From assembly GCF_003334305.1 (NCBI RefSeq), contig NZ_QOWS01000049.1: DNA of 6,386 nt. One strand, written 5' to 3'. The notes below the pieces were generated by a model, which saw only the letters and a program-made list of their open reading frames with translations, searched no databases and was not told the DNA's origin. Source of the stretch: Escherichia coli (GTDB lineage: Bacteria; Pseudomonadota; Gammaproteobacteria; Enterobacterales; Enterobacteriaceae). Both the position numbers and the translations under genes were made by a program. Shown in pieces: positions 63 to 6,309 of this stretch (its first letter is position 1; each line of letters opens with the position of its first letter).

Positions 63-77
63 GTTGGAGTCATTACC
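1..77 (+). mobile_element. IS1 insertion sequence, right end only (element continues upstream of the window)
   Basis: Nt 1-77 match, from my memory of IS1, the last ~77 bp of the element in canonical orientation (AATCGGTGGAGCTGCATGACAAAGTCATCGGGCATTATCTGAACATAAAACACTATCAATAAGTTGGAGTCATTACC), ending with the right terminal inverted repeat at 55-77. Not verified by search. Confidence 0.85.
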
Positions 78-735
78 GTGCACGGTAACGGGCCATATCA
101 ATGAGCAGTTCCTCTCCAATTTTATTTGCCCCTAGAGAGCGGCGAGTTTTCTTCACTTCAATGACAATCTTCTCTTTCTTCAGAAGAAAATCCTGTCTGG
201 ATGATGAACCTGCGAAGCTAGGTGAATTTTCTTCAGGTCTGACATCATTAAAATGCAGCAGCAGAAGAGCATGAACAAGATCCTGTACATCATACTCGTC
301 ATTAATTTCAAGCGGCGTTCTGTCATTGTATCGTTGCTTTAATTGACGACAAAAAGCTGGAAATTTATTGAGTATATTTATAATCAAATCCAGTTCGGCA
401 TGTTTTGTTGCTATAGTCGATGCCGTGCCGGAGTAAGTTAAATCGTCTCTGGCTGCATCAAAAATAGGTTTGTAATGTCTAACCAATCCCTGATAATTAC
501 TAGACCAAGCAATCCTTTGTGTATCATTAAAATCTTTGTAGTAATCAGATTCCTTTCCATAACTGTCTTCAAGTAACTTTTTTGCTCTTGCAATCCAGTT
601 ATTACCTTTAGCCGAATCAATATATTCCTGGCTTCTGTGACTAAATGCACTTGTTCCCATATATTTTGTCGACATGACAGAATTGTACTCTTGTTCAAGC
701 ACTTCAAATCTTTCAGCTAAGGTCTTCTTCGTCAT
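73..735 (-). CDS. Hypothetical protein with a C-terminal PD-(D/E)xK-like nuclease motif; 3' end created by the IS1 junction, so probably truncated
   Basis: ORF track frame 73..747 (-). Position 747 is a TTG; the first ATG is at 735 (MTKKTLAERFE...), giving about 220 aa. The C-terminal region reads EYDVQDLVHALLLLHF ... SSSRQDFLLKKEKIVIEVKK: an acidic helix, a D in a hydrophobic strand, then E-V-K 11 residues later, the arrangement expected for a PD-(D/E)xK core (motif-level inference only). The last sense codon and the TAA stop (73-75) overlap the IS1 terminus, which ends at 77. Confidence 0.55.
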   Translation of the reverse strand: MTKKTLAERFEVLEQEYNSVMSTKYMGTSAFSHRSQEYIDSAKGNNWIARAKKLLEDSYGKESDYYKDFNDTQRIAWSSNYQGLVRHYKPIFDAARDDLTYSGTASTIATKHAELDLIINILNKFPAFCRQLKQRYNDRTPLEINDEYDVQDLVHALLLLHFNDVRPEENSPSFAGSSSRQDFLLKKEKIVIEVKKTRRSLGANKIGEELLIDMARYRAR

Positions 736-811
736 AGCGCAATCCAAATTATATGCTAATAATACCTGTGAATTTTAATATTCTACCATATCTGGCTTTC
801 TTCCGTTCACA

Positions 812-837
812 TTGGACATTCAGGTAATTTCGTCCAG
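812..837. repeat. Dyad-symmetric motif copy 1 (TTGGACATTCAGGTAATTTCGTCCAG)
   Basis: Inverted repeat TGGAC (813-817) / GTCCA (832-836) around a 14-bp spacer. It is homologous to the copies at 1710, 2259 and 5447. It lies in the divergent promoter region between the 73..735 ORF and the 905..1099 ORF. Confidence 0.6.
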
Positions 838-2258: not shown

Positions 2259-2284
2259 CTGGACATTCAGGTAAAAAAGTCCAA
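2259..2284. repeat. Dyad-symmetric motif copy 3 (CTGGACATTCAGGTAAAAAAGTCCAA), fused to the terminator stem
   Basis: TGGAC (2260-2264) / GTCCA (2279-2283). The right half-site is also the 5' arm of the terminator hairpin at 2278-2304. Confidence 0.55.
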
Positions 2285-2358
2285 CTGGTGAGGTTGGGCT
2301 TTTTGGCTTTCCGGTTCTGTTGGTGGCTATGACCGGAGAAAATTGCTCTACACCTAAC
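2273..2358 (-). ncRNA. Candidate small RNA, orphan paralog of the antisense RNA at 4727..4814
   Basis: Homologous to 4727-4814 along its length: the same terminator architecture, the same internal hairpin (TCCGGT ... ACCGGA), and a conserved -10 (TAAAAT on the minus strand, plus-strand 2365-2370). The predicted 5' seed is different (GUAGAGCAAUUUUCUCC versus GUAGAGUGACUUCCUCC). No adjacent toxin gene, and no target found in the window. Confidence 0.4.
2278..2304. terminator. Bidirectional rho-independent terminator (A-tract / 8-bp stem / 7-nt loop / T-tract)
   Basis: AGTCCAAC (2278-2285) pairs with GTTGGGCT (2293-2300), with one G-U pair. The loop is TGGTGAG. A5 lies upstream and T5 downstream, so it reads as stem plus U-tract on both strands. 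It serves the 1772..2221 ORF on the plus strand and the sRNA candidate on the minus strand. Confidence 0.6.
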
Positions 2359-2393
2359 GCTTACATTTTATTTACAGCGTTTGATATCTTCCT

Positions 2394-2429
2394 CGCCTTT
2401 AACGCCTTTAACGCCTTTAACGCCTTTAA
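2394..2429. repeat. Perfect tandem repeat, 4 copies of the 9-bp unit CGCCTTTAA
   Basis: Direct reading: the unit CGCCTTTAA occurs at 2394, 2403, 2412 and 2421, followed by G6. It occupies the -35/upstream position of the sRNA candidate promoter at 2365-2370. Confidence 0.9.
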
Positions 2430-2837: not shown

Positions 2838-4340
2838 ATGAAGAAATTTTATCAATTTAGGGATGAACAGCGAAAGGAGCTTGAACAACATGATTTTTAT
2901 AGTTTGATTTCTTCAGATTGTATAGCGTTGAAAGACAAACTATTATTTGCTCCTGTTATGGCTCATTTCATAATGAACTTCAGAGACATGAATAAATGGG
3001 TTATCAGGTTTGATAACAATGATAATGAATATAAATCTGTTATAAACGGTGGAACAATCGAGGATGAAACACATTCAAGATTGTTTCTGGAAGACTGGAG
3101 GAAACTATATATAGATGACAAACTTAACTGGAAAGCAAGTGATGTTATATACTGGTTGTTTATTAGTCGAGAAATGGAGTGTTTCCGAAAATTTGGTATT
3201 GATTTTATGAGACTTTGTGTAGATGATGGAGGAGACCCAATACTTCGATATTCTCACTCCGAGTCAGGAGAAACTTGCGGTAATATATTCTTTTCAAGAA
3301 TTAGTCCTATTGCTGATCAAGTTGCCAATCATTTGGGAATATCACTCCGTTATTTTGGAACATTTCACCTTAATCTTGAAAATGGACATGTATGGAAGTC
3401 AGAAGGTGTTTTTGAAAATATAGAGTTGTCACCAGATTCTTATAAGAAAATGGCTACTCTATCAAAGAGAATGTTTGATATATTTGAAGGAATTCATGAC
3501 TCTTTTTATAATTACCTGTCCAGTTATGTTCTTAATGGAAGTCATCCGTCATTTTTTGAATCATTACCTGTAGGGAAAAATGTTGCACCTATATACCCTG
3601 AATTTGTGATAGAAAACAAAAGCCATAACGATGGTAGACATATTGAACATATAAACAATTACCTGGAAAAAATATCGAGTCATGAGTTCTTTAAATGGCT
3701 GGTTAACACCTCAATAGACCCTCAATTGAAATTGAAAAGTTTCATACCTCTTTGGATTGTTGATATTATGGGGTATAGAGATATTAATAAATATGTTTTT
3801 ACATATGAACAGCCTGAATCAGAAAGTGAAAAGATTATAAATGATTATGCATTACACTTGTCAGAGCATAGCCGTTTATTTTATCATGACTGGAAGTCAC
3901 TTCAACTTGATGATATGTTACGTTGGAGTGCCAGTGATACTCTTGAGTTTATTTTTCTTAATTCAGATATGGATATGCATAGAGAAAATATAGTTAAGTT
4001 TTCTTTGTTCGGATTAAAACACAGAGATCCTGTTATCAGGTTCTGGTTTATGATGATACTGGAGTTAAGTGGAAAAGAATTTTTCTCTCATGTTGGAGAT
4101 ATAGCTTTACAGGTGGAAAGTAAATATAATATTTATCTCCCATATTTATGTGGACGCCATGCAACAGAAAATGAGCATGAAGCATATAATAATATGTATG
4201 AGCATTTTATGGTAAAGGAACTTAGCCCTGAACAAAGTGATCTAATAATACAAATTACAGACATGGTTATGCGGTCATTATTGAATAATTTGGATATCTC
4301 ATATCGATATGTAGTAAATAATTTATTGGCAGCTCGTTAG
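2838..4340 (+). CDS. Hypothetical 500-aa protein made of two homologous ~220-aa halves; function unknown
   Basis: Long ORF with a strong AGGAG Shine-Dalgarno site, its own AT-rich promoter region and its own terminator. The two halves share ETHSRLFLEDWRKLYIDDKLNWKASD versus EHSRLFYHDWKSLQLDDMLRWSASD, FRDMNKWV versus YRDINKYV, and a later ELSP motif. No signal peptide or TM helix is apparent. Codon usage is strongly AT-biased compared with the flanking sequence. Confidence 0.8.
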   Translation: MKKFYQFRDEQRKELEQHDFYSLISSDCIALKDKLLFAPVMAHFIMNFRDMNKWVIRFDNNDNEYKSVINGGTIEDETHSRLFLEDWRKLYIDDKLNWKASDVIYWLFISREMECFRKFGIDFMRLCVDDGGDPILRYSHSESGETCGNIFFSRISPIADQVANHLGISLRYFGTFHLNLENGHVWKSEGVFENIELSPDSYKKMATLSKRMFDIFEGIHDSFYNYLSSYVLNGSHPSFFESLPVGKNVAPIYPEFVIENKSHNDGRHIEHINNYLEKISSHEFFKWLVNTSIDPQLKLKSFIPLWIVDIMGYRDINKYVFTYEQPESESEKIINDYALHLSEHSRLFYHDWKSLQLDDMLRWSASDTLEFIFLNSDMDMHRENIVKFSLFGLKHRDPVIRFWFMMILELSGKEFFSHVGDIALQVESKYNIYLPYLCGRHATENEHEAYNNMYEHFMVKELSPEQSDLIIQITDMVMRSLLNNLDISYRYVVNNLLAAR

Positions 4341-4374: not shown

Positions 4375-4404
4375 AAATCCCACTTTTCAGAGTGGGATTT
4401 GTTT
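4375..4404 (+). terminator. Rho-independent terminator of the 500-aa ORF
   Basis: Perfect 10-bp stem AAATCCCACT (4375-4384) / AGTGGGATTT (4391-4400), loop TTTCAG, followed by GTTTAAT. It lies 35 nt after the TAG stop at 4338-4340. Confidence 0.65.
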
Positions 4405-4504
4405 AATGCCCAGAACAGGGGGAATTTCCATTCATGCCCAAAAAATATTTTGATGTCCTCTCGCCAATTCTCGCGCTCAGTCCTTCCTGAAAAACCTCAG
4501 AATT

Positions 4505-4645
4505 CACGTAGCGCATCGCCGCTACTGCATCCATCAAAAAAAATGACAGCTTTTTTAATCATCTTGTGTTACTCAACTTACTGAAAAATGTGATTTATGA
4601 AAATGCCGCCGTCGGCATCAAGCAGTTGGCCAGCGCAACCGGCTG
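4505..4645. repeat. Repeat block U, copy A (about 140-bp core; homologous to 5765-5905)
   Basis: Shared anchors, by eye about 75% identity: TTCACGTAGCG, TACTG-ATCCATCAA, AATGAC, CTACTGAAAAAT, GGC-ACAGCATC. The reading frames are not conserved between the two copies, so it is probably non-coding. Confidence 0.55.
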
Positions 4646-4726
4646 CATCGACCGCAACAAAAAAACTGAAAGAGAAAGCCCCTCAAATGAGGGAGAAAAA
4701 AAGGAAGTGCAGTCAACGAGAGGCGT

Positions 4727-4814
4727 AAAAAACCCGACTGGTGAGGTCGGGTTTTAATACGGTTCCGGTTCTGAGTTGGTGGCTCTGACCGGAGGAAGTC
4801 ACTCTACACCTAAC
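4727..4814 (-). ncRNA. Candidate antisense small RNA (type I antitoxin-like), divergent from the 31-aa peptide gene
   Basis: Minus-strand promoter: TTGCAA (4844-4849), 17-bp spacer, TAAAAT (plus-strand 4821-4826). The predicted start is near 4814. The terminator is stem CCCGAC (4733-4738) / GTCGGG (4746-4751) with loop TGGTGAG and a U6 run on the minus strand. The first 24 nt (complement of 4791-4814) pair with plus-strand 5026-5049 in the peptide mRNA leader (23 Watson-Crick pairs plus one G-U). Confidence 0.5.
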
Positions 4815-4820
4815 GTTTAC

Positions 4821-4849
4821 ATTTTATGCACTCAGCCGCAGTATTGCAA
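4821..4849 (-). promoter_or_regulatory. Candidate sigma70 promoter of the antisense RNA (-35 TTGCAA, -10 TAAAAT, 17-bp spacer)
   Basis: Read on the minus strand: TTGCAA, then TACTGCGGCTGAGTGCA, then TAAAAT. Confidence 0.45.
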
Positions 4850-5025: not shown

Positions 5026-5049
5026 GGAGGAAGTCACTCTGCACCTAAC
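5026..5049 (+). promoter_or_regulatory. Predicted antisense RNA target site in the peptide mRNA leader
   Basis: GGAGGAAGTCACTCTGCACCTAAC (5026-5049) differs at one position (A to G) from plus-strand 4791-4814, so it is complementary to the 5' end of the minus-strand RNA with one G-U wobble. Confidence 0.5.
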
Positions 5050-5125: not shown

Positions 5126-5221
5126 ATGATTAATCTGTTAATCATCGTTCTCAGGGCTGTGGTCGCCGTTGCAAACGCGCTGATTGCAATTCTGGAACTG
5201 ATTCGCCAGTTCATCGACTGA
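5126..5221 (+). CDS. 31-aa hydrophobic peptide, type I toxin-like (MINLLIIVLRAVVAVANALIAILELIRQFID)
   Basis: ATG at 5126 with GGAG 6 nt upstream. An in-frame stop lies upstream at 5096-5098, so this is the first possible start. The peptide has one predicted TM helix and a charged C-terminus. A near-identical paralog is at 6044..6139. It is not in the ORF track, which lists only the antisense frame 4909..5214. Confidence 0.6.
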   Translation: MINLLIIVLRAVVAVANALIAILELIRQFID

Positions 5222-5446: not shown

Positions 5447-5472
5447 CTGGACATACAGGTTATTCTGTCCAT
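5447..5472. repeat. Dyad-symmetric motif copy 4 (CTGGACATACAGGTTATTCTGTCCAT)
   Basis: TGGACA (5449-5454) / TGTCCA (5466-5471), with an inner dyad ACCTG ... CAGGT. It lies in the spacer between the two peptide units. Confidence 0.6.
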
Positions 5473-5764
5473 ACCTCATTAGTTACAACATTCACGCGTT
5501 CTGTTCCTTTATCCGGTGCCCTGTTCCAGTATATGTGCCCATATCCTGGGTTATTCAGGATAACCGCTTCCTTTTCGCCCTGTCCTGTCGTTCATATCCC
5601 CCTGGACAAAAATGCATTATCGGAAAAAATGTCCAAAATTTTTTTGGTGATCGGAATTTTTGTTGTCGGACGCACCTCTTCTTCAGGTCATAATTGCTGA
5701 CACATCCCAAAAAACAGGAGCGGAGATTTAAAAATTGAGTCACTTACCCGCCAAAATTTTCCAG

Positions 5765-5905
5765 ATTTCACGTAGCGTACCGTCGATACTGTATCCATCA
5801 ACAAATGACTATTTTTTGAATGTGTCATTTCCTGTAACCTACTGAAAAATATCAGTGAATGACAATATCGGCGACAGCATCGGAGCTGATAGCCAGTTTC
5901 CTGAA
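5765..5905. repeat. Repeat block U, copy B (homologous to 4505-4645)
   Basis: Same anchors as copy A. It is preceded by a candidate -10 (CATAAT, 5689-5694) and followed by the hairpin at 5994-6032. Confidence 0.55.
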
Positions 5906-5993: not shown

Positions 5994-6032
5994 AGCCCAA
6001 CTTTATGGGGGTCAGTTCAGTGAGGTTGGGCT
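5994..6032. terminator. Hairpin homologous to the sRNA terminators (8-bp stem, enlarged 23-nt loop), directly upstream of the second peptide gene
   Basis: AGCCCAAC (5994-6001) pairs perfectly with GTTGGGCT (6025-6032). The loop ends in TCAGTGAG, compared with TGGTGAG in the other copies. On the plus strand, A4 lies upstream and no U tract follows. Confidence 0.45.
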
Positions 6033-6043
6033 AAGAGAAACGA

Positions 6044-6139
6044 ATGATTAACCTGTTAATCATCATTCTCAGGGATGTGGTCGCCGTTGCAAACGCGCGG
6101 ATTGCAGTTCTGGAACTGATTCGCCAGTTCATCGTTTGA
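6044..6139 (+). CDS. Second copy of the 31-aa peptide (MINLLIIILRDVVAVANARIAVLELIRQFIV), possibly degenerate
   Basis: ATG at 6044 with a weaker ribosome-binding site (AAGAG). It differs from copy 1 at 7 nt (V8I, A11D, L19R, I22V, D31V, one synonymous), and two of these put charged residues in the hydrophobic core. It lacks the sRNA, promoter and leader block present upstream of copy 1. Confidence 0.45.
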   Translation: MINLLIIILRDVVAVANARIAVLELIRQFIV

Positions 6140-6309
6140 TGACAGCGGAAACGTAACTCAGGACAGGAAGTTCCAAATAGCTCCCAGCCAGCATATGTAA
6201 TTTTCAAAGGGGCAGTTGTTAACTCTGTAATAACGCCATGTAAAGTATTCCTGCCCCCTCCATGATCCTCCATAGTATTTCTTGAGTTAATTTTCAAAAA
6301 GCTTCTGAT

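What the first reader, a model, noticed from the sequence alone, without database searches (positions are those of the whole stretch)
2259..2372. Orphan sRNA paralog with a re-coded seed; terminator stems show compensatory base changes
The segment 2273-2358 (minus strand) is a paralog of the antisense RNA at 4727-4814: same -10, same internal hairpin, same terminator loop (TGGTGAG). In the seed region, five of seven central positions differ (GGAGAAAATTGCTCTAC versus GGAGGAAGTCACTCTAC on the plus strand) while the flanks are conserved. The terminator stems differ at two paired positions with both partners changed (CCCGAC/GTCGGG in copy A versus CCCAAC/GTTGGG in copies B and C), which preserves pairing and argues the hairpin is under structural selection. 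No matching toxin leader exists in the window, so this sRNA either targets a peptide mRNA elsewhere or is a relic.
Basis: seen in the sequence. Interest (0 to 1): 0.6.

Follow-up and report, generated by a model that had tools for sequence, protein, structure and literature searches.

The report
Mismatched spare copy of antitoxin RNA
This is a second, partly decayed copy of the small antitoxin RNA gene (agrB family) of a known plasmid toxin-antitoxin system; it no longer matches any known toxin message, much like the already described agrA RNA of E. coli K-12, so it is a real but ordinary feature.

Summary
The window is a stretch of E. coli S88 plasmid pECOS88 between two IS1 copies. Segment 2271-2357 (-) is a genuine paralog of the agrB antitoxin sRNA at 4725-4813 (-): both exceed the Rfam AgrB (RF02891) threshold (46 and 64 bits). 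Copy A is the cognate antitoxin of the annotated DinQ-like toxin gene dqlB (5126-5221), matching its leader at 5026-5049. Copy C differs from A at four seed positions (not five), all transitions. It pairs with the dqlB leader at 18 Watson-Crick, 3 G.U and 2 mismatches of 23, the same tally as K-12 AgrA:dinQ, which is experimentally inert. No leader carrying the copy C seed was found in PLSDB, 5,426 complete E. coli genomes, GTDB representative genomes or JGI metagenomes. Copy C also lacks the -35 box and the inner helix of the family hairpin. Its terminator carries a C.A mismatch and folds better on the opposite strand. Both flanks are unrelated to dql modules. The "compensatory" evidence is one base pair, and "copy B" is only a hairpin remnant. 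The best reading is an AgrA-like orphan relic travelling with a 500-aa gene of unknown function: a new member of a known kind, of low to moderate interest.

The parts
2271..2357 (-). Copy C: AgrA-like orphan paralog of the agrB antitoxin sRNA gene. By homology the start is U at 2357 and the 3' U-run is at 2278-2273.
   Evidence: Rfam RF02891, 46 bits, E 1.5e-5, model positions 1-84. 80% identical to copy A.
2335..2358 (-). Antisense core of copy C (+ strand GGAGAAAATTGCTCTACACCTAAC). It differs from copy A at 2339, 2342, 2344 and 2345.
   Evidence: Against the dqlB-1 leader: 18 WC, 3 G.U, 2 mismatches of 23.
2365..2370 (-). -10 hexamer TAAAAT of copy C. The expected -35 position reads AGGAAG, so there is no -35 box.
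   Evidence: Alignment of promoters. The promoter scan finds copy A's promoter but none for copy C.
2279..2299 (.). Terminator hairpin of copy C (GTCCAAC-TGGTGAG-GTTGGGC on +). It is stronger as + strand RNA, so it probably serves as terminator of the upstream gene 1796-2221.
   Evidence: -9.5 kcal/mol (z -1.6) on the - strand against -18.9 (z -4.4) on the + strand. Its 5' arm overlaps motif copy 2260-2283.
4725..4813 (-). Copy A: cognate agrB antitoxin sRNA gene.
   Evidence: Rfam RF02891, 64 bits. 22 WC and 1 G.U of 23 against the leader. Duplex -64.3 kcal/mol.
4821..4849 (-). Promoter of copy A (TTGCAA-17-TAAAAT).
   Evidence: The -35 box is conserved in the other family members.
5026..5049 (+). 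agr-repeat target in the dqlB-1 mRNA leader (GGAGGAAGTCACTCTGCACCTAAC).
   Evidence: (family D2).
5126..5221 (+). dqlB-1: DinQ-like type I toxin, 31 aa, MINLLIIVLRAVVAVANALIAILELIRQFID.
   Evidence: RefSeq annotation WP_000609147.1. Translation.
5994..6031 (+). 'Copy B': a hairpin remnant of a C-like terminator (GCCCAAC...GTTGGGC) fused to the ribosome-binding region of dqlB-2. It is not an sRNA gene.
   Evidence: No AgrB hit at E<=1.
6044..6139 (+). dqlB-2: second toxin ORF without leader, promoter or cognate sRNA, with A11D and L19R in the hydrophobic helix. Probably inactive.
2838..4340 (+). 500-aa ORF of unknown function (32% GC) that separates copy C from copy A. Copy C almost always travels with it.
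   Evidence: No Pfam, NCBIfam or PADLOC hit.

Best explanation
Copy C is a degenerate, non-cognate paralog of the agrB antitoxin sRNA gene of the plasmid's DqlB/AgrB type I toxin-antitoxin module. It is the plasmid counterpart of E. coli K-12 agrA.

The working module is copy A (4725-4813, -) plus dqlB-1 (5126-5221, +). The first ~24-36 nt of the copy A sRNA pair with a repeat in the toxin mRNA leader (5026-5049). By analogy with AgrB/dinQ, this keeps the ribosome-binding site shut.

Copy C is a ~100-bp solo fragment of another such module, running from the terminator to the -10 box. It has lost the -35 box and the inner helix of its hairpin, and it has a C.A mismatch in its terminator. Its antisense core matches no known toxin leader.

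It most likely does nothing to dqlB, or at most mildly affects the level of the full-length mRNA. It persists because it is physically linked to the 500-aa gene block, and perhaps because its hairpin still terminates the upstream + strand gene.

Shown: homology, family membership, the mismatch pattern, the absence of a partner in the searched collections, and the structural defects. Inferred: lack of expression or function.
For: Family membership: both copies exceed the RF02891 gathering score. RefSeq annotates two dqlB genes here, and DqlB/AgrB is an experimentally validated addiction module on pOXA-48 and pOXA-484.

Pairing: copy A against the leader is 22 WC + 1 G.U. Copy C against the leader is 18 WC + 3 G.U + 2 adjacent mismatches, identical in tally to K-12 AgrA:dinQ.

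Duplex energies: A:leader -64.3, AgrB:dinQ -62.7, IncX-type cognate -57.4, AgrA:dinQ -47.2, C:leader -44.2. AgrA does not bind +44 dinQ or block its translation.

No partner found:
- a dqlB leader carrying the C seed finds nothing better than the native leader in PLSDB;
- 807 of 809 PLSDB records that match the 34-nt seed query cover >=80% of it, the sRNA-gene type of match; one of the other two is a Halorubrum plasmid with a short 22-nt match, the other was not listed;
- all 472 such hits in the 5,426 E. coli genomes are likewise of that type;
- 16 leader loci from GTDB genomes and 21 leader types overall give a best match of 1 mismatch + 2 G.U, at -33.3 against -38.6 to -45.5 for cognates;
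- a wobble-tolerant leader pattern gives one metagenome hit, which is not an exact match.

Decay: the -35 box is absent. The inner helix is lost only in the C lineage. MFE is -16.6 against -26.6 (copy A) and about -36 (IncX type). The terminator is weaker in the sRNA sense than on the + strand. The E. albertii variant has a 5-nt terminator deletion, and substitution density in the sRNA is about the same as in the flanks.

Solo fragment: neither flank has dql-module homology, whereas copy A has the conserved X region.

Dispensable: ORF501 + copy A + dqlB exists without copy C.

Mismatched extra agr paralogs are common: Hafnia has 3 copies, Citrobacter 4, plus K-12 and E69.
Against: Copy C keeps a perfect -10 box, the family 5' end, the outer hairpin stem, the conserved loop and a 6-U tail. 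It is 99-100% conserved in more than 200 plasmids, many of which show no second agr-like seed match. That conservation may only reflect recent spread.

The terminator pair that changed did so on both sides, so the hairpin was under selection at some time. In vivo, deleting agrA raised full-length dinQ mRNA 3-fold, so a mismatched paralog need not be wholly inert. Expression was not tested. Collections may lack the true partner. The E. albertii variant of C pairs with the one metagenomic leader at 0 mismatches + 2 G.U, so a partner may have existed recently.
Confidence: 0.65

Rival explanations
1. Copy C is an expressed orphan antitoxin directed at a dqlB variant carried by other plasmids or strains (anti-addiction or cross-immunity). 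It would let its host plasmid neutralise post-segregational killing by a competitor. Its U-rich seed would pair through G.U wobbles with several leader types.
For: It is retained in many IncF plasmids that show no second agr-like seed match (p1658/97). Two of the four seed changes give G.U rather than mismatches against the type A and IncX leaders. The E. albertii variant pairs with a metagenomic leader at 0 mismatches + 2 G.U, -38.0 kcal/mol, which is within the cognate range. Seeds and leaders are highly diversified across plasmid groups, so specificity classes exist.
Against: The window's version has an extra A>G change (2345) that adds a mismatch to every leader sampled. Its best duplex (-33.3) is below all cognate pairs and comparable with inert AgrA:dinQ. 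It has no -35 box and a weakened hairpin and terminator. No matching leader was found in PLSDB, the E. coli genomes, GTDB representatives or metagenomes.
Confidence: 0.13
2. Copy C is expressed and acts as a weak modulator of dqlB-1, as AgrA does for full-length dinQ mRNA. It would tune mRNA level or compete with copy A, without being a true antitoxin.
For: Deleting agrA raised full-length dinQ transcript 3-fold, although AgrA does not block translation. C:leader still has 21 of 23 positions paired or wobble-paired.
Against: The duplex is predicted weaker than AgrA:dinQ. The promoter lacks a -35 box, whereas agrA has a consensus-like one. Copy C lies 2.7 kb from dqlB and is absent from otherwise identical ORF501-agrB-dqlB blocks.
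Confidence: 0.15
3. The sequence is kept not as an sRNA gene but as a cis element of the neighbouring genes. The hairpin would terminate the + strand gene 1796-2221, and the rest would be promoter-distal filler or part of a recombination junction at the repeated motif.
For: The hairpin folds at -18.9 kcal/mol (z -4.4) on the + strand, followed by UUUUU, against -9.5 (z -1.6) on the sRNA strand. Its 5' arm overlaps the last 5 nt of motif copy 2260-2283, and homology breakpoints in other plasmids fall at this motif.
Against: This explains only the 21-nt hairpin, not the retention of the 60-nt body and the -10 box. It is compatible with, rather than opposed to, the relic reading.
Confidence: 0.05

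Closest known systems
AgrA of E. coli K-12 (arsR-gor region; Weel-Sneve 2013, PMC3567139; Kristiansen 2016, PMC5066626)
   Same: It is a paralog of the AgrB antitoxin sRNA with the same architecture. Its differences are concentrated in the centre of the 5' antisense domain. The pairing tally against the local toxin leader is the same (18 WC, 3 G.U, 2 mismatches of 23). It is non-cognate.
   Different: agrA has a consensus-like promoter (TTGCAA-17-TAGCAT), intact hairpins and is expressed. It lies between agrB and dinQ, within 300 nt of the toxin gene. Copy C lacks the -35 box and the inner helix, has a mismatched terminator, lies 2.7 kb away behind an unrelated gene, and arose by a separate duplication (its body is closest to plasmid copy A). 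In other Escherichia lineages the agrA-position sRNA is the cognate one. No such partner was found for copy C.
AgrB antitoxin of plasmid DqlB/AgrB modules (pOXA-48, PMC12365149; pOXA-484, PMC12317039)
   Same: Same Rfam family, same plasmid-borne toxin family (DqlB), and the same divergent sRNA/toxin arrangement for copy A.
   Different: Those sRNAs are complementary to their toxin leader (35 nt in pOXA-48) and are required for plasmid maintenance. Copy C has no complementary leader.
Multi-copy type I systems with discriminating antitoxins, such as Sib/Ibs and Rdl/Ldr in E. coli (recalled from memory, not tested here)
   Same: Several paralogous antisense RNAs whose few central nucleotide differences decide which toxin mRNA each controls.
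   Different: In those systems each sRNA overlaps, or sits next to, its own toxin gene. Copy C has none.

Membership tests
AgrB/AgrA sRNA family (Rfam RF02891) | Full-length match to the covariance model above the gathering score (40 bits) | tested here: met
   46 bits, E 1.5e-5, model positions 1-84 at 2357-2271.
AgrB/AgrA sRNA family (Rfam RF02891) | Internal hairpin: 7-bp outer stem, 3-bp inner helix and GCCACCAAC loop | tested here: inconclusive
   The outer stem and loop are present. The inner helix is lost through G>U and a 2-nt deletion (NC marks). Across the family the helix is paired in 87.5% of cells, with 2 covarying pairs.
AgrB/AgrA sRNA family (Rfam RF02891) | Rho-independent terminator at the 3' end | tested here: inconclusive
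   There is a 5-bp core plus a flanking A-U stem and a U6 tail, but with a C.A mismatch. Energy is -9.5 kcal/mol and 17 of 200 shuffles fold as well. Other members fold at -13 to -20.
AgrB/AgrA sRNA family (Rfam RF02891) | Own sigma-70 promoter (-35 TTGNNN, 17 nt, -10 TANNAT) | tested here: not met
   The -10 box TAAAAT is present. The -35 position reads AGGAAG in all copy C lineages, against TTGCAA, TTGCTT or TTGACA in the others.
Functional AgrB-type antitoxin of a DinQ/DqlB type I TA module | About 24-36 nt of near-perfect complementarity (at most 1 mismatch in the 23-nt core) to the agr repeat in a toxin mRNA leader | tested here: not met
   2 mismatches + 3 G.U against the local leader. 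Every leader examined has a cis sRNA with at most 1 mismatch, apart from three loci where the first bases of the sRNA alignment are offset. No leader with the C seed was found in PLSDB, the E. coli genomes, GTDB representatives or metagenomes.
Functional AgrB-type antitoxin of a DinQ/DqlB type I TA module | Encoded divergently within about 500 nt of the toxin gene (the T1TAdb rule, PMC8594479) | tested here: not met
   The copy C start (2357) is 2.77 kb from the dqlB-1 start codon (5126), with a 1.5-kb unrelated ORF in between. Copy A is 313 nt away.
Functional AgrB-type antitoxin of a DinQ/DqlB type I TA module | Transcribed, and protects against the toxin | not testable with these tools
   No expression or rescue data could be obtained.
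DqlB/AgrB type I toxin-antitoxin module (the window's copy A + dqlB-1) | 31-aa hydrophobic DinQ-like peptide, a leader with an SD-sequestering stem and an agr repeat, and a cognate divergent sRNA | tested here: met
   RefSeq dqlB annotation. The leader repeat is at 5026-5049. Copy A pairs at 22 WC + 1 G.U. The leader is 94% identical to that of IncX modules.

The most novel reading that the evidence does not exclude
Copy C is transcribed and is kept as a spare specificity. It would act either as a wobble-tolerant trans-antitoxin that shields its plasmid's host from dqlB toxins of competing IncX/IncI plasmids, or as a donor for gene conversion with the homologous leader repeat, so that a toxin/antitoxin pair can switch recognition code. 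In Escherichia chromosomes the dinQ leader matches the agrB-position sRNA in K-12 but the agrA-position sRNA in E69, E. albertii, E. whittamii and Escherichia sp. E1V33.
Probability: 0.1. Interest if true: 0.6.

Novelty: new member of a known kind. Interest (0 to 1): 0.27.

Why it matters
On its own it matters little. It adds an unannotated AgrA-like sRNA gene fragment to a plasmid region where RefSeq annotates only the toxin ORFs. It shows that the sRNA halves of DqlB/AgrB modules on ColV/IncF and IncX plasmids go unannotated.

The wider pattern is more useful. Loci of this family commonly carry one matched and one or more mismatched sRNA paralogs. The 11-12 central nucleotides of the antisense core and of the leader repeat diversify together across plasmid groups. 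Which paralog is cognate can differ between strains. That bears on how type I addiction modules avoid cross-talk and on plasmid incompatibility and competition, but it needs experiments.

Tried and rejected
- Chance similarity: rejected (blastn E 6e-22; Rfam E 1.5e-5).
- A target elsewhere in the window, including the 5' region of the 500-aa ORF: a duplex scan of both strands gave only copy C's own antisense strand and the copy A gene (-42.7) on the + strand. The best - strand hits (-27.6) are at the level of shuffled seeds, -24.2 +/- 2.5.
- Copy B as a third sRNA copy: rejected.
- Region 2373-2520 as a remnant of a toxin leader or ORF: it has no homology to any dql module. The 54-aa ORF at 2455-2619 is not DinQ-like.
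- The copy C and copy B hairpin arms fit the integron attC core motifs (RYYYAAC / GTTRRRY). I considered this and set it aside: the hairpin is only 21 nt and I saw no integrase. This rests on memory of the attC consensus and was not tested.
- RNAalifold on a MAFFT alignment of 29 family members returned no structure, because the terminators were misaligned by loop indels. I used explicit pair counts for hairpin 1 and per-sequence folds for the terminator instead.
- One protein-family call failed on wrong coordinates, and one regular expression for sRNA genes found nothing. Both were replaced.
- I did not scan the whole S88 chromosome directly. I relied on the search of all 5,426 complete E. 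coli genomes; the S88 plasmid record is in that collection.

Full report
WHERE THE WINDOW COMES FROM. The window is 100% identical to E. coli S88 plasmid pECOS88 (NC_011747.1), in the stretch between two IS1 copies. The same block occurs in about 49 complete E. coli genomes and many ColV/IncF plasmids. RefSeq annotates two 'DinQ-like type I toxin DqlB' genes here, at window 5126-5221 and 6044-6139. It also annotates four hypothetical proteins and a truncated PD-(D/E)XK nuclease gene, but no RNA genes.

Rfam finds two full-length matches to AgrB (RF02891, 'ArsR-gor region gene B'), the antisense antitoxin of the DinQ type I toxin. They lie at 4813-4725 (-), 64 bits, and 2357-2271 (-), 46 bits, against a gathering score of 40.
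- The two are 80% identical (72 of 90 columns).
- They share the -10 box TAAAAT, the 5' end UUAGGUGUAGAG, the outer stem of the hairpin and the terminator loop.
- The copy A core GGAGGAAGTCACTCTAC recurs with one G/A difference at 5026-5042, 84 nt upstream of dqlB-1. The copy C core GGAGAAAATTGCTCTAC is unique in the window up to three mismatches.

So the homology, the diverged core and the absence of a matching leader are real.

Details that are wrong:
- Four core positions differ, not five, and all are transitions.
- The inner helix of the hairpin is destroyed in copy C by a G>U change and a 2-nt deletion.
- One terminator pair, not two, changed on both sides. Copy C's stem also has a C.A mismatch in the sRNA sense.
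- Copy C has no -35 box.
- 'Copy B' (5994-6031) is only a hairpin with a 22-23-nt loop abutting the dqlB-2 start. Rfam finds no third AgrB match at E<=1.

THE SYSTEM IS KNOWN. dinQ/agrA/agrB were described in K-12. AgrB pairs with a repeat in the dinQ 5' UTR and keeps the ribosome-binding site closed. AgrA is a paralog with mismatches in that region; it does not bind +44 dinQ or block its translation. Kristiansen et al. named the plasmid and chromosomal homologues dqlA and dqlB. DqlB/AgrB was shown in 2025 to be a toxic-peptide/antitoxin-RNA addiction module on pOXA-48 and pOXA-484. In this window copy A + dqlB-1 is such a module:
- a TTGCAA-17-TAAAAT promoter;
- 22 Watson-Crick pairs and 1 G.U over the first 23 nt;
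- a predicted duplex of -64.3 kcal/mol, comparable with AgrB:dinQ at -62.7.

IS COPY C MATCHED TO ANYTHING? Against the dqlB-1 leader it gives 18 Watson-Crick, 3 G.U and 2 adjacent mismatches. This is exactly the tally of K-12 AgrA against dinQ. Its predicted duplex is -44.2 kcal/mol, slightly weaker than the inert AgrA:dinQ pair at -47.2. I then looked for a cognate leader in five ways.
1. A synthetic dqlB leader carrying the copy C core, searched against 72,556 plasmids, found nothing better than the native leader (94.5% identity, the four core differences; no record at 95% or above).
2. A 34-nt query around the core, at E<=10, hit 809 plasmid records. Of these, 807 cover at least 80% of the query, which is the sRNA-gene type of match. 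One of the other two is a Halorubrum plasmid with a short 22-nt match; the other was not among the rows listed.
3. The same query against 5,426 complete E. coli genomes hit 472 records, all of the sRNA-gene type. Only 7 places are on chromosomes.
4. A generic leader pattern scanned over one genome per bacterial species gave 16 loci. Together with ten plasmid groups fetched separately (IncHI2, IncI/K, IncK2/Z, IncI1/B/O, IncX3, IncL/M, pESI and others), this gave 21 distinct leader cores. None matches copy C.
5. A wobble-tolerant, copy-C-type leader pattern scanned over the metagenome collection gave a single hit, a fused sRNA/leader with core GGAGGAAGTTACTCT.

The best partner for the window's copy C is that metagenomic leader: 1 mismatch + 2 G.U, -33.3 kcal/mol for the 24-mer. 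Cognate pairs give -38.6 to -45.5. The E. albertii variant of copy C, which has A instead of G at the position equivalent to 2345, pairs with it at 0 mismatches + 2 G.U (-38.0). So the lineage may once have had such a partner, and the window's version has drifted one step further.

SIGNS OF DECAY.
- Every other family member examined that sits next to a toxin has a TTG-type -35 box 17 nt from the -10. All three copy C lineages have AGGAAG there.
- The inner helix is canonical in 24-25 of 29 members. The exceptions include all three copy C lineage members.
- The whole-RNA MFE is -16.6 kcal/mol, against -26.6 for copy A and about -36 for IncX copies.
- The terminator folds at -9.5 kcal/mol as the sRNA strand (z -1.6; 17 of 200 shuffles do as well) but at -18.9 (z -4.4) as the + strand. 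Copy A is balanced at -17.1 and -19.4. On the + strand the hairpin is followed by UUUUU and lies 58 nt after the stop codon of ORF 1796-2221. It may therefore survive as that gene's terminator.
- Among copy C lineages (IncX4, IncX1, IncF, E. albertii) the sRNA changes as fast as the flanking intergenic DNA: 2-3 substitutions in 87 nt against about 2% in the flanks. The E. albertii copy has a 5-nt deletion in the terminator loop. These numbers are small.

A SOLO FRAGMENT. A normal module has a conserved 'X' region on the 3' side of agrB. It is present next to copy A (4400-4724) and in IncX, IncHI2, Photorhabdus and metagenome loci. The module also has a promoter-leader-toxin segment on the other side. 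Copy C has neither. On one side it runs into a repeated motif and on the other into sequence found only in copy C/ORF501 blocks.
- The copy C to 500-aa ORF block occurs in 281 PLSDB plasmids.
- About 223 plasmids carry copy C itself.
- In a sample of E. coli records with copy C, more than half have no second agr-like seed match. p1658/97 is one example.
- Conversely, ORF501 + copy A + dqlB exists without copy C (pO45-type), and an 89%-identical ORF501 homologue has no agr gene nearby.

Copy C is therefore dispensable for the module and looks like a passenger.

THE COMPENSATORY-CHANGE ARGUMENT. At the fourth stem pair, 24 of 29 family terminators have G-C. The copy C lineage and hairpin B have A-U, and one Citrobacter copy has the G.U intermediate. 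This is one double change, probably one event shared by C and B. It shows the hairpin was once selected. It does not show that copy C is functional now, given the C.A mismatch and the strand asymmetry above. Real covariation in the family is better seen in hairpin 1, with two covarying pairs and 87.5% of cells paired against at most 53% in slid controls.

VERDICT. The finding is a correct sighting of an sRNA paralog. It belongs to a described family and repeats a described situation (AgrA). The most likely state is a non-cognate, decaying relic, with confidence about 0.65. The smaller alternatives are a weak AgrA-like modulatory effect on dqlB-1 mRNA and cross-immunity against an unsampled dqlB variant. 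I rate it a new member of a known kind.

WIDER PATTERN SEEN ON THE WAY. Arrays of 2-4 agr paralogs, with one matched and the others carrying 2-9 mismatches, are common: Hafnia, Citrobacter, K-12, E69 and IncX1/IncF plasmids. The central ~12 nt of the core differ between almost all leader types while GGAG...CTAAC stays fixed. In E. coli E69, E. albertii, E. whittamii and Escherichia sp. E1V33 the dinQ leader matches the agrA-position sRNA and not the agrB-position one, the reverse of K-12. The E69-type leader is at least 99% matched in 148 of 5,415 E. coli genomes. I did not find this reversal mentioned in the passages I read of the papers consulted.

Noticed in passing
window 813-836, 1148-1171, 1711-1734, 2260-2283, 5448-5471 (all + strand); also L003 5928-5951, L011 3388-3411 and 7091-7114, L025 9529-9552 and 11638-11661: A 24-nt motif TGGACNNNCAGN8GNCCA (inverted ends TGGAC/GTCCA, inner ACCTG..CAGGT) occurs five times in one orientation, with none expected by chance. 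The copies sit between gene cassettes: ORF64 | ORF159 | ORF141 | copyC-ORF501-copyA-dqlB1 | dqlB2. Homology with other plasmids stops exactly at the motif's right end. In L011 a serine recombinase gene lies 230 nt beyond it. Copy C's terminator arm overlaps the last 5 nt of one copy. It may be a recombination site that builds this mosaic.
   Followed up: partly
L022 1499-2017 (E. coli E69), L013, L014, L024, L026, compared with L005 (K-12): In several Escherichia lineages the dinQ leader core (GGAGTGAGATAGTCGTC) pairs with the agrA-position sRNA at 22 WC + 1 G.U and mismatches the agrB-position sRNA at 4 positions. This is the reverse of K-12. The E69-type leader is at least 99% matched in 148 of 5,415 E. 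coli genomes, and the leader region is highly polymorphic. AgrA is therefore not an orphan species-wide.
   Followed up: partly
window 6044-6139 with 5994-6043 and 6140-6175: The second dqlB ORF has no promoter, leader or cognate sRNA. It carries A11D and L19R in the hydrophobic helix, and its terminator's 3' half is replaced. It is probably a dead toxin gene, although RefSeq names it DqlB.
   Followed up: partly
L003 5440-5605 (IncX1 p573-5) and L028 240-400 (metagenome contig QZLY01000173.1): The agrB gene and the dqlB leader are fused at their shared 33-nt repeat, which deletes both promoters and everything between. This looks like homologous recombination between the sRNA gene and its target repeat, seen independently in two sources.
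   Followed up: partly
window 2394-2429 and 2500-2507: A perfect 9-nt tandem repeat (CGCCTTTAA x4) lies just upstream of copy C's missing -35 box. Its copy number varies from 1 to 7 between otherwise near-identical plasmids. A G8 tract inside a + strand terminator-like hairpin (2491-2518) also varies in length between them (about 5 to 9 G).
   Followed up: partly
window 2838-4340 (+): A 500-aa ORF with 32% GC (window average 40%) has no Pfam, NCBIfam or PADLOC match. It is present with at least 80% coverage in 281 PLSDB plasmids (IncF, IncX1, IncX4), usually between two agr copies. Its function is unknown.
   Followed up: partly
window 4400-4724 and 5762-5896: An 'X' region on the 3' side of agrB is conserved (70-80% identity) in dql modules of IncX, IncHI2, Photorhabdus and metagenome loci. 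It contains a RefSeq-annotated 55-aa ORF (4590-4757) that overlaps the agrB terminator. Its role is unknown.
   Followed up: no
L018 5373-5690 (Hafnia paralvei); L012 4744-5797 (Citrobacter werkmanii): There are tandem arrays of three and four AgrB-family genes around one dql leader. In each array only one or two copies match the leader.
   Followed up: partly
window 73-747 (-): A truncated ORF resembles the 'Aga helical-REase' class II defence proteins of PADLOC (E 4e-23). RefSeq calls it a partial PD-(D/E)XK nuclease, and it is cut by the left IS1.
   Followed up: no
L040 5027-5127: In pO45-type plasmids a ColE1-type RNAI (Rfam RF00106, 66 bits) lies about 240 nt downstream of dqlB.
   Followed up: no
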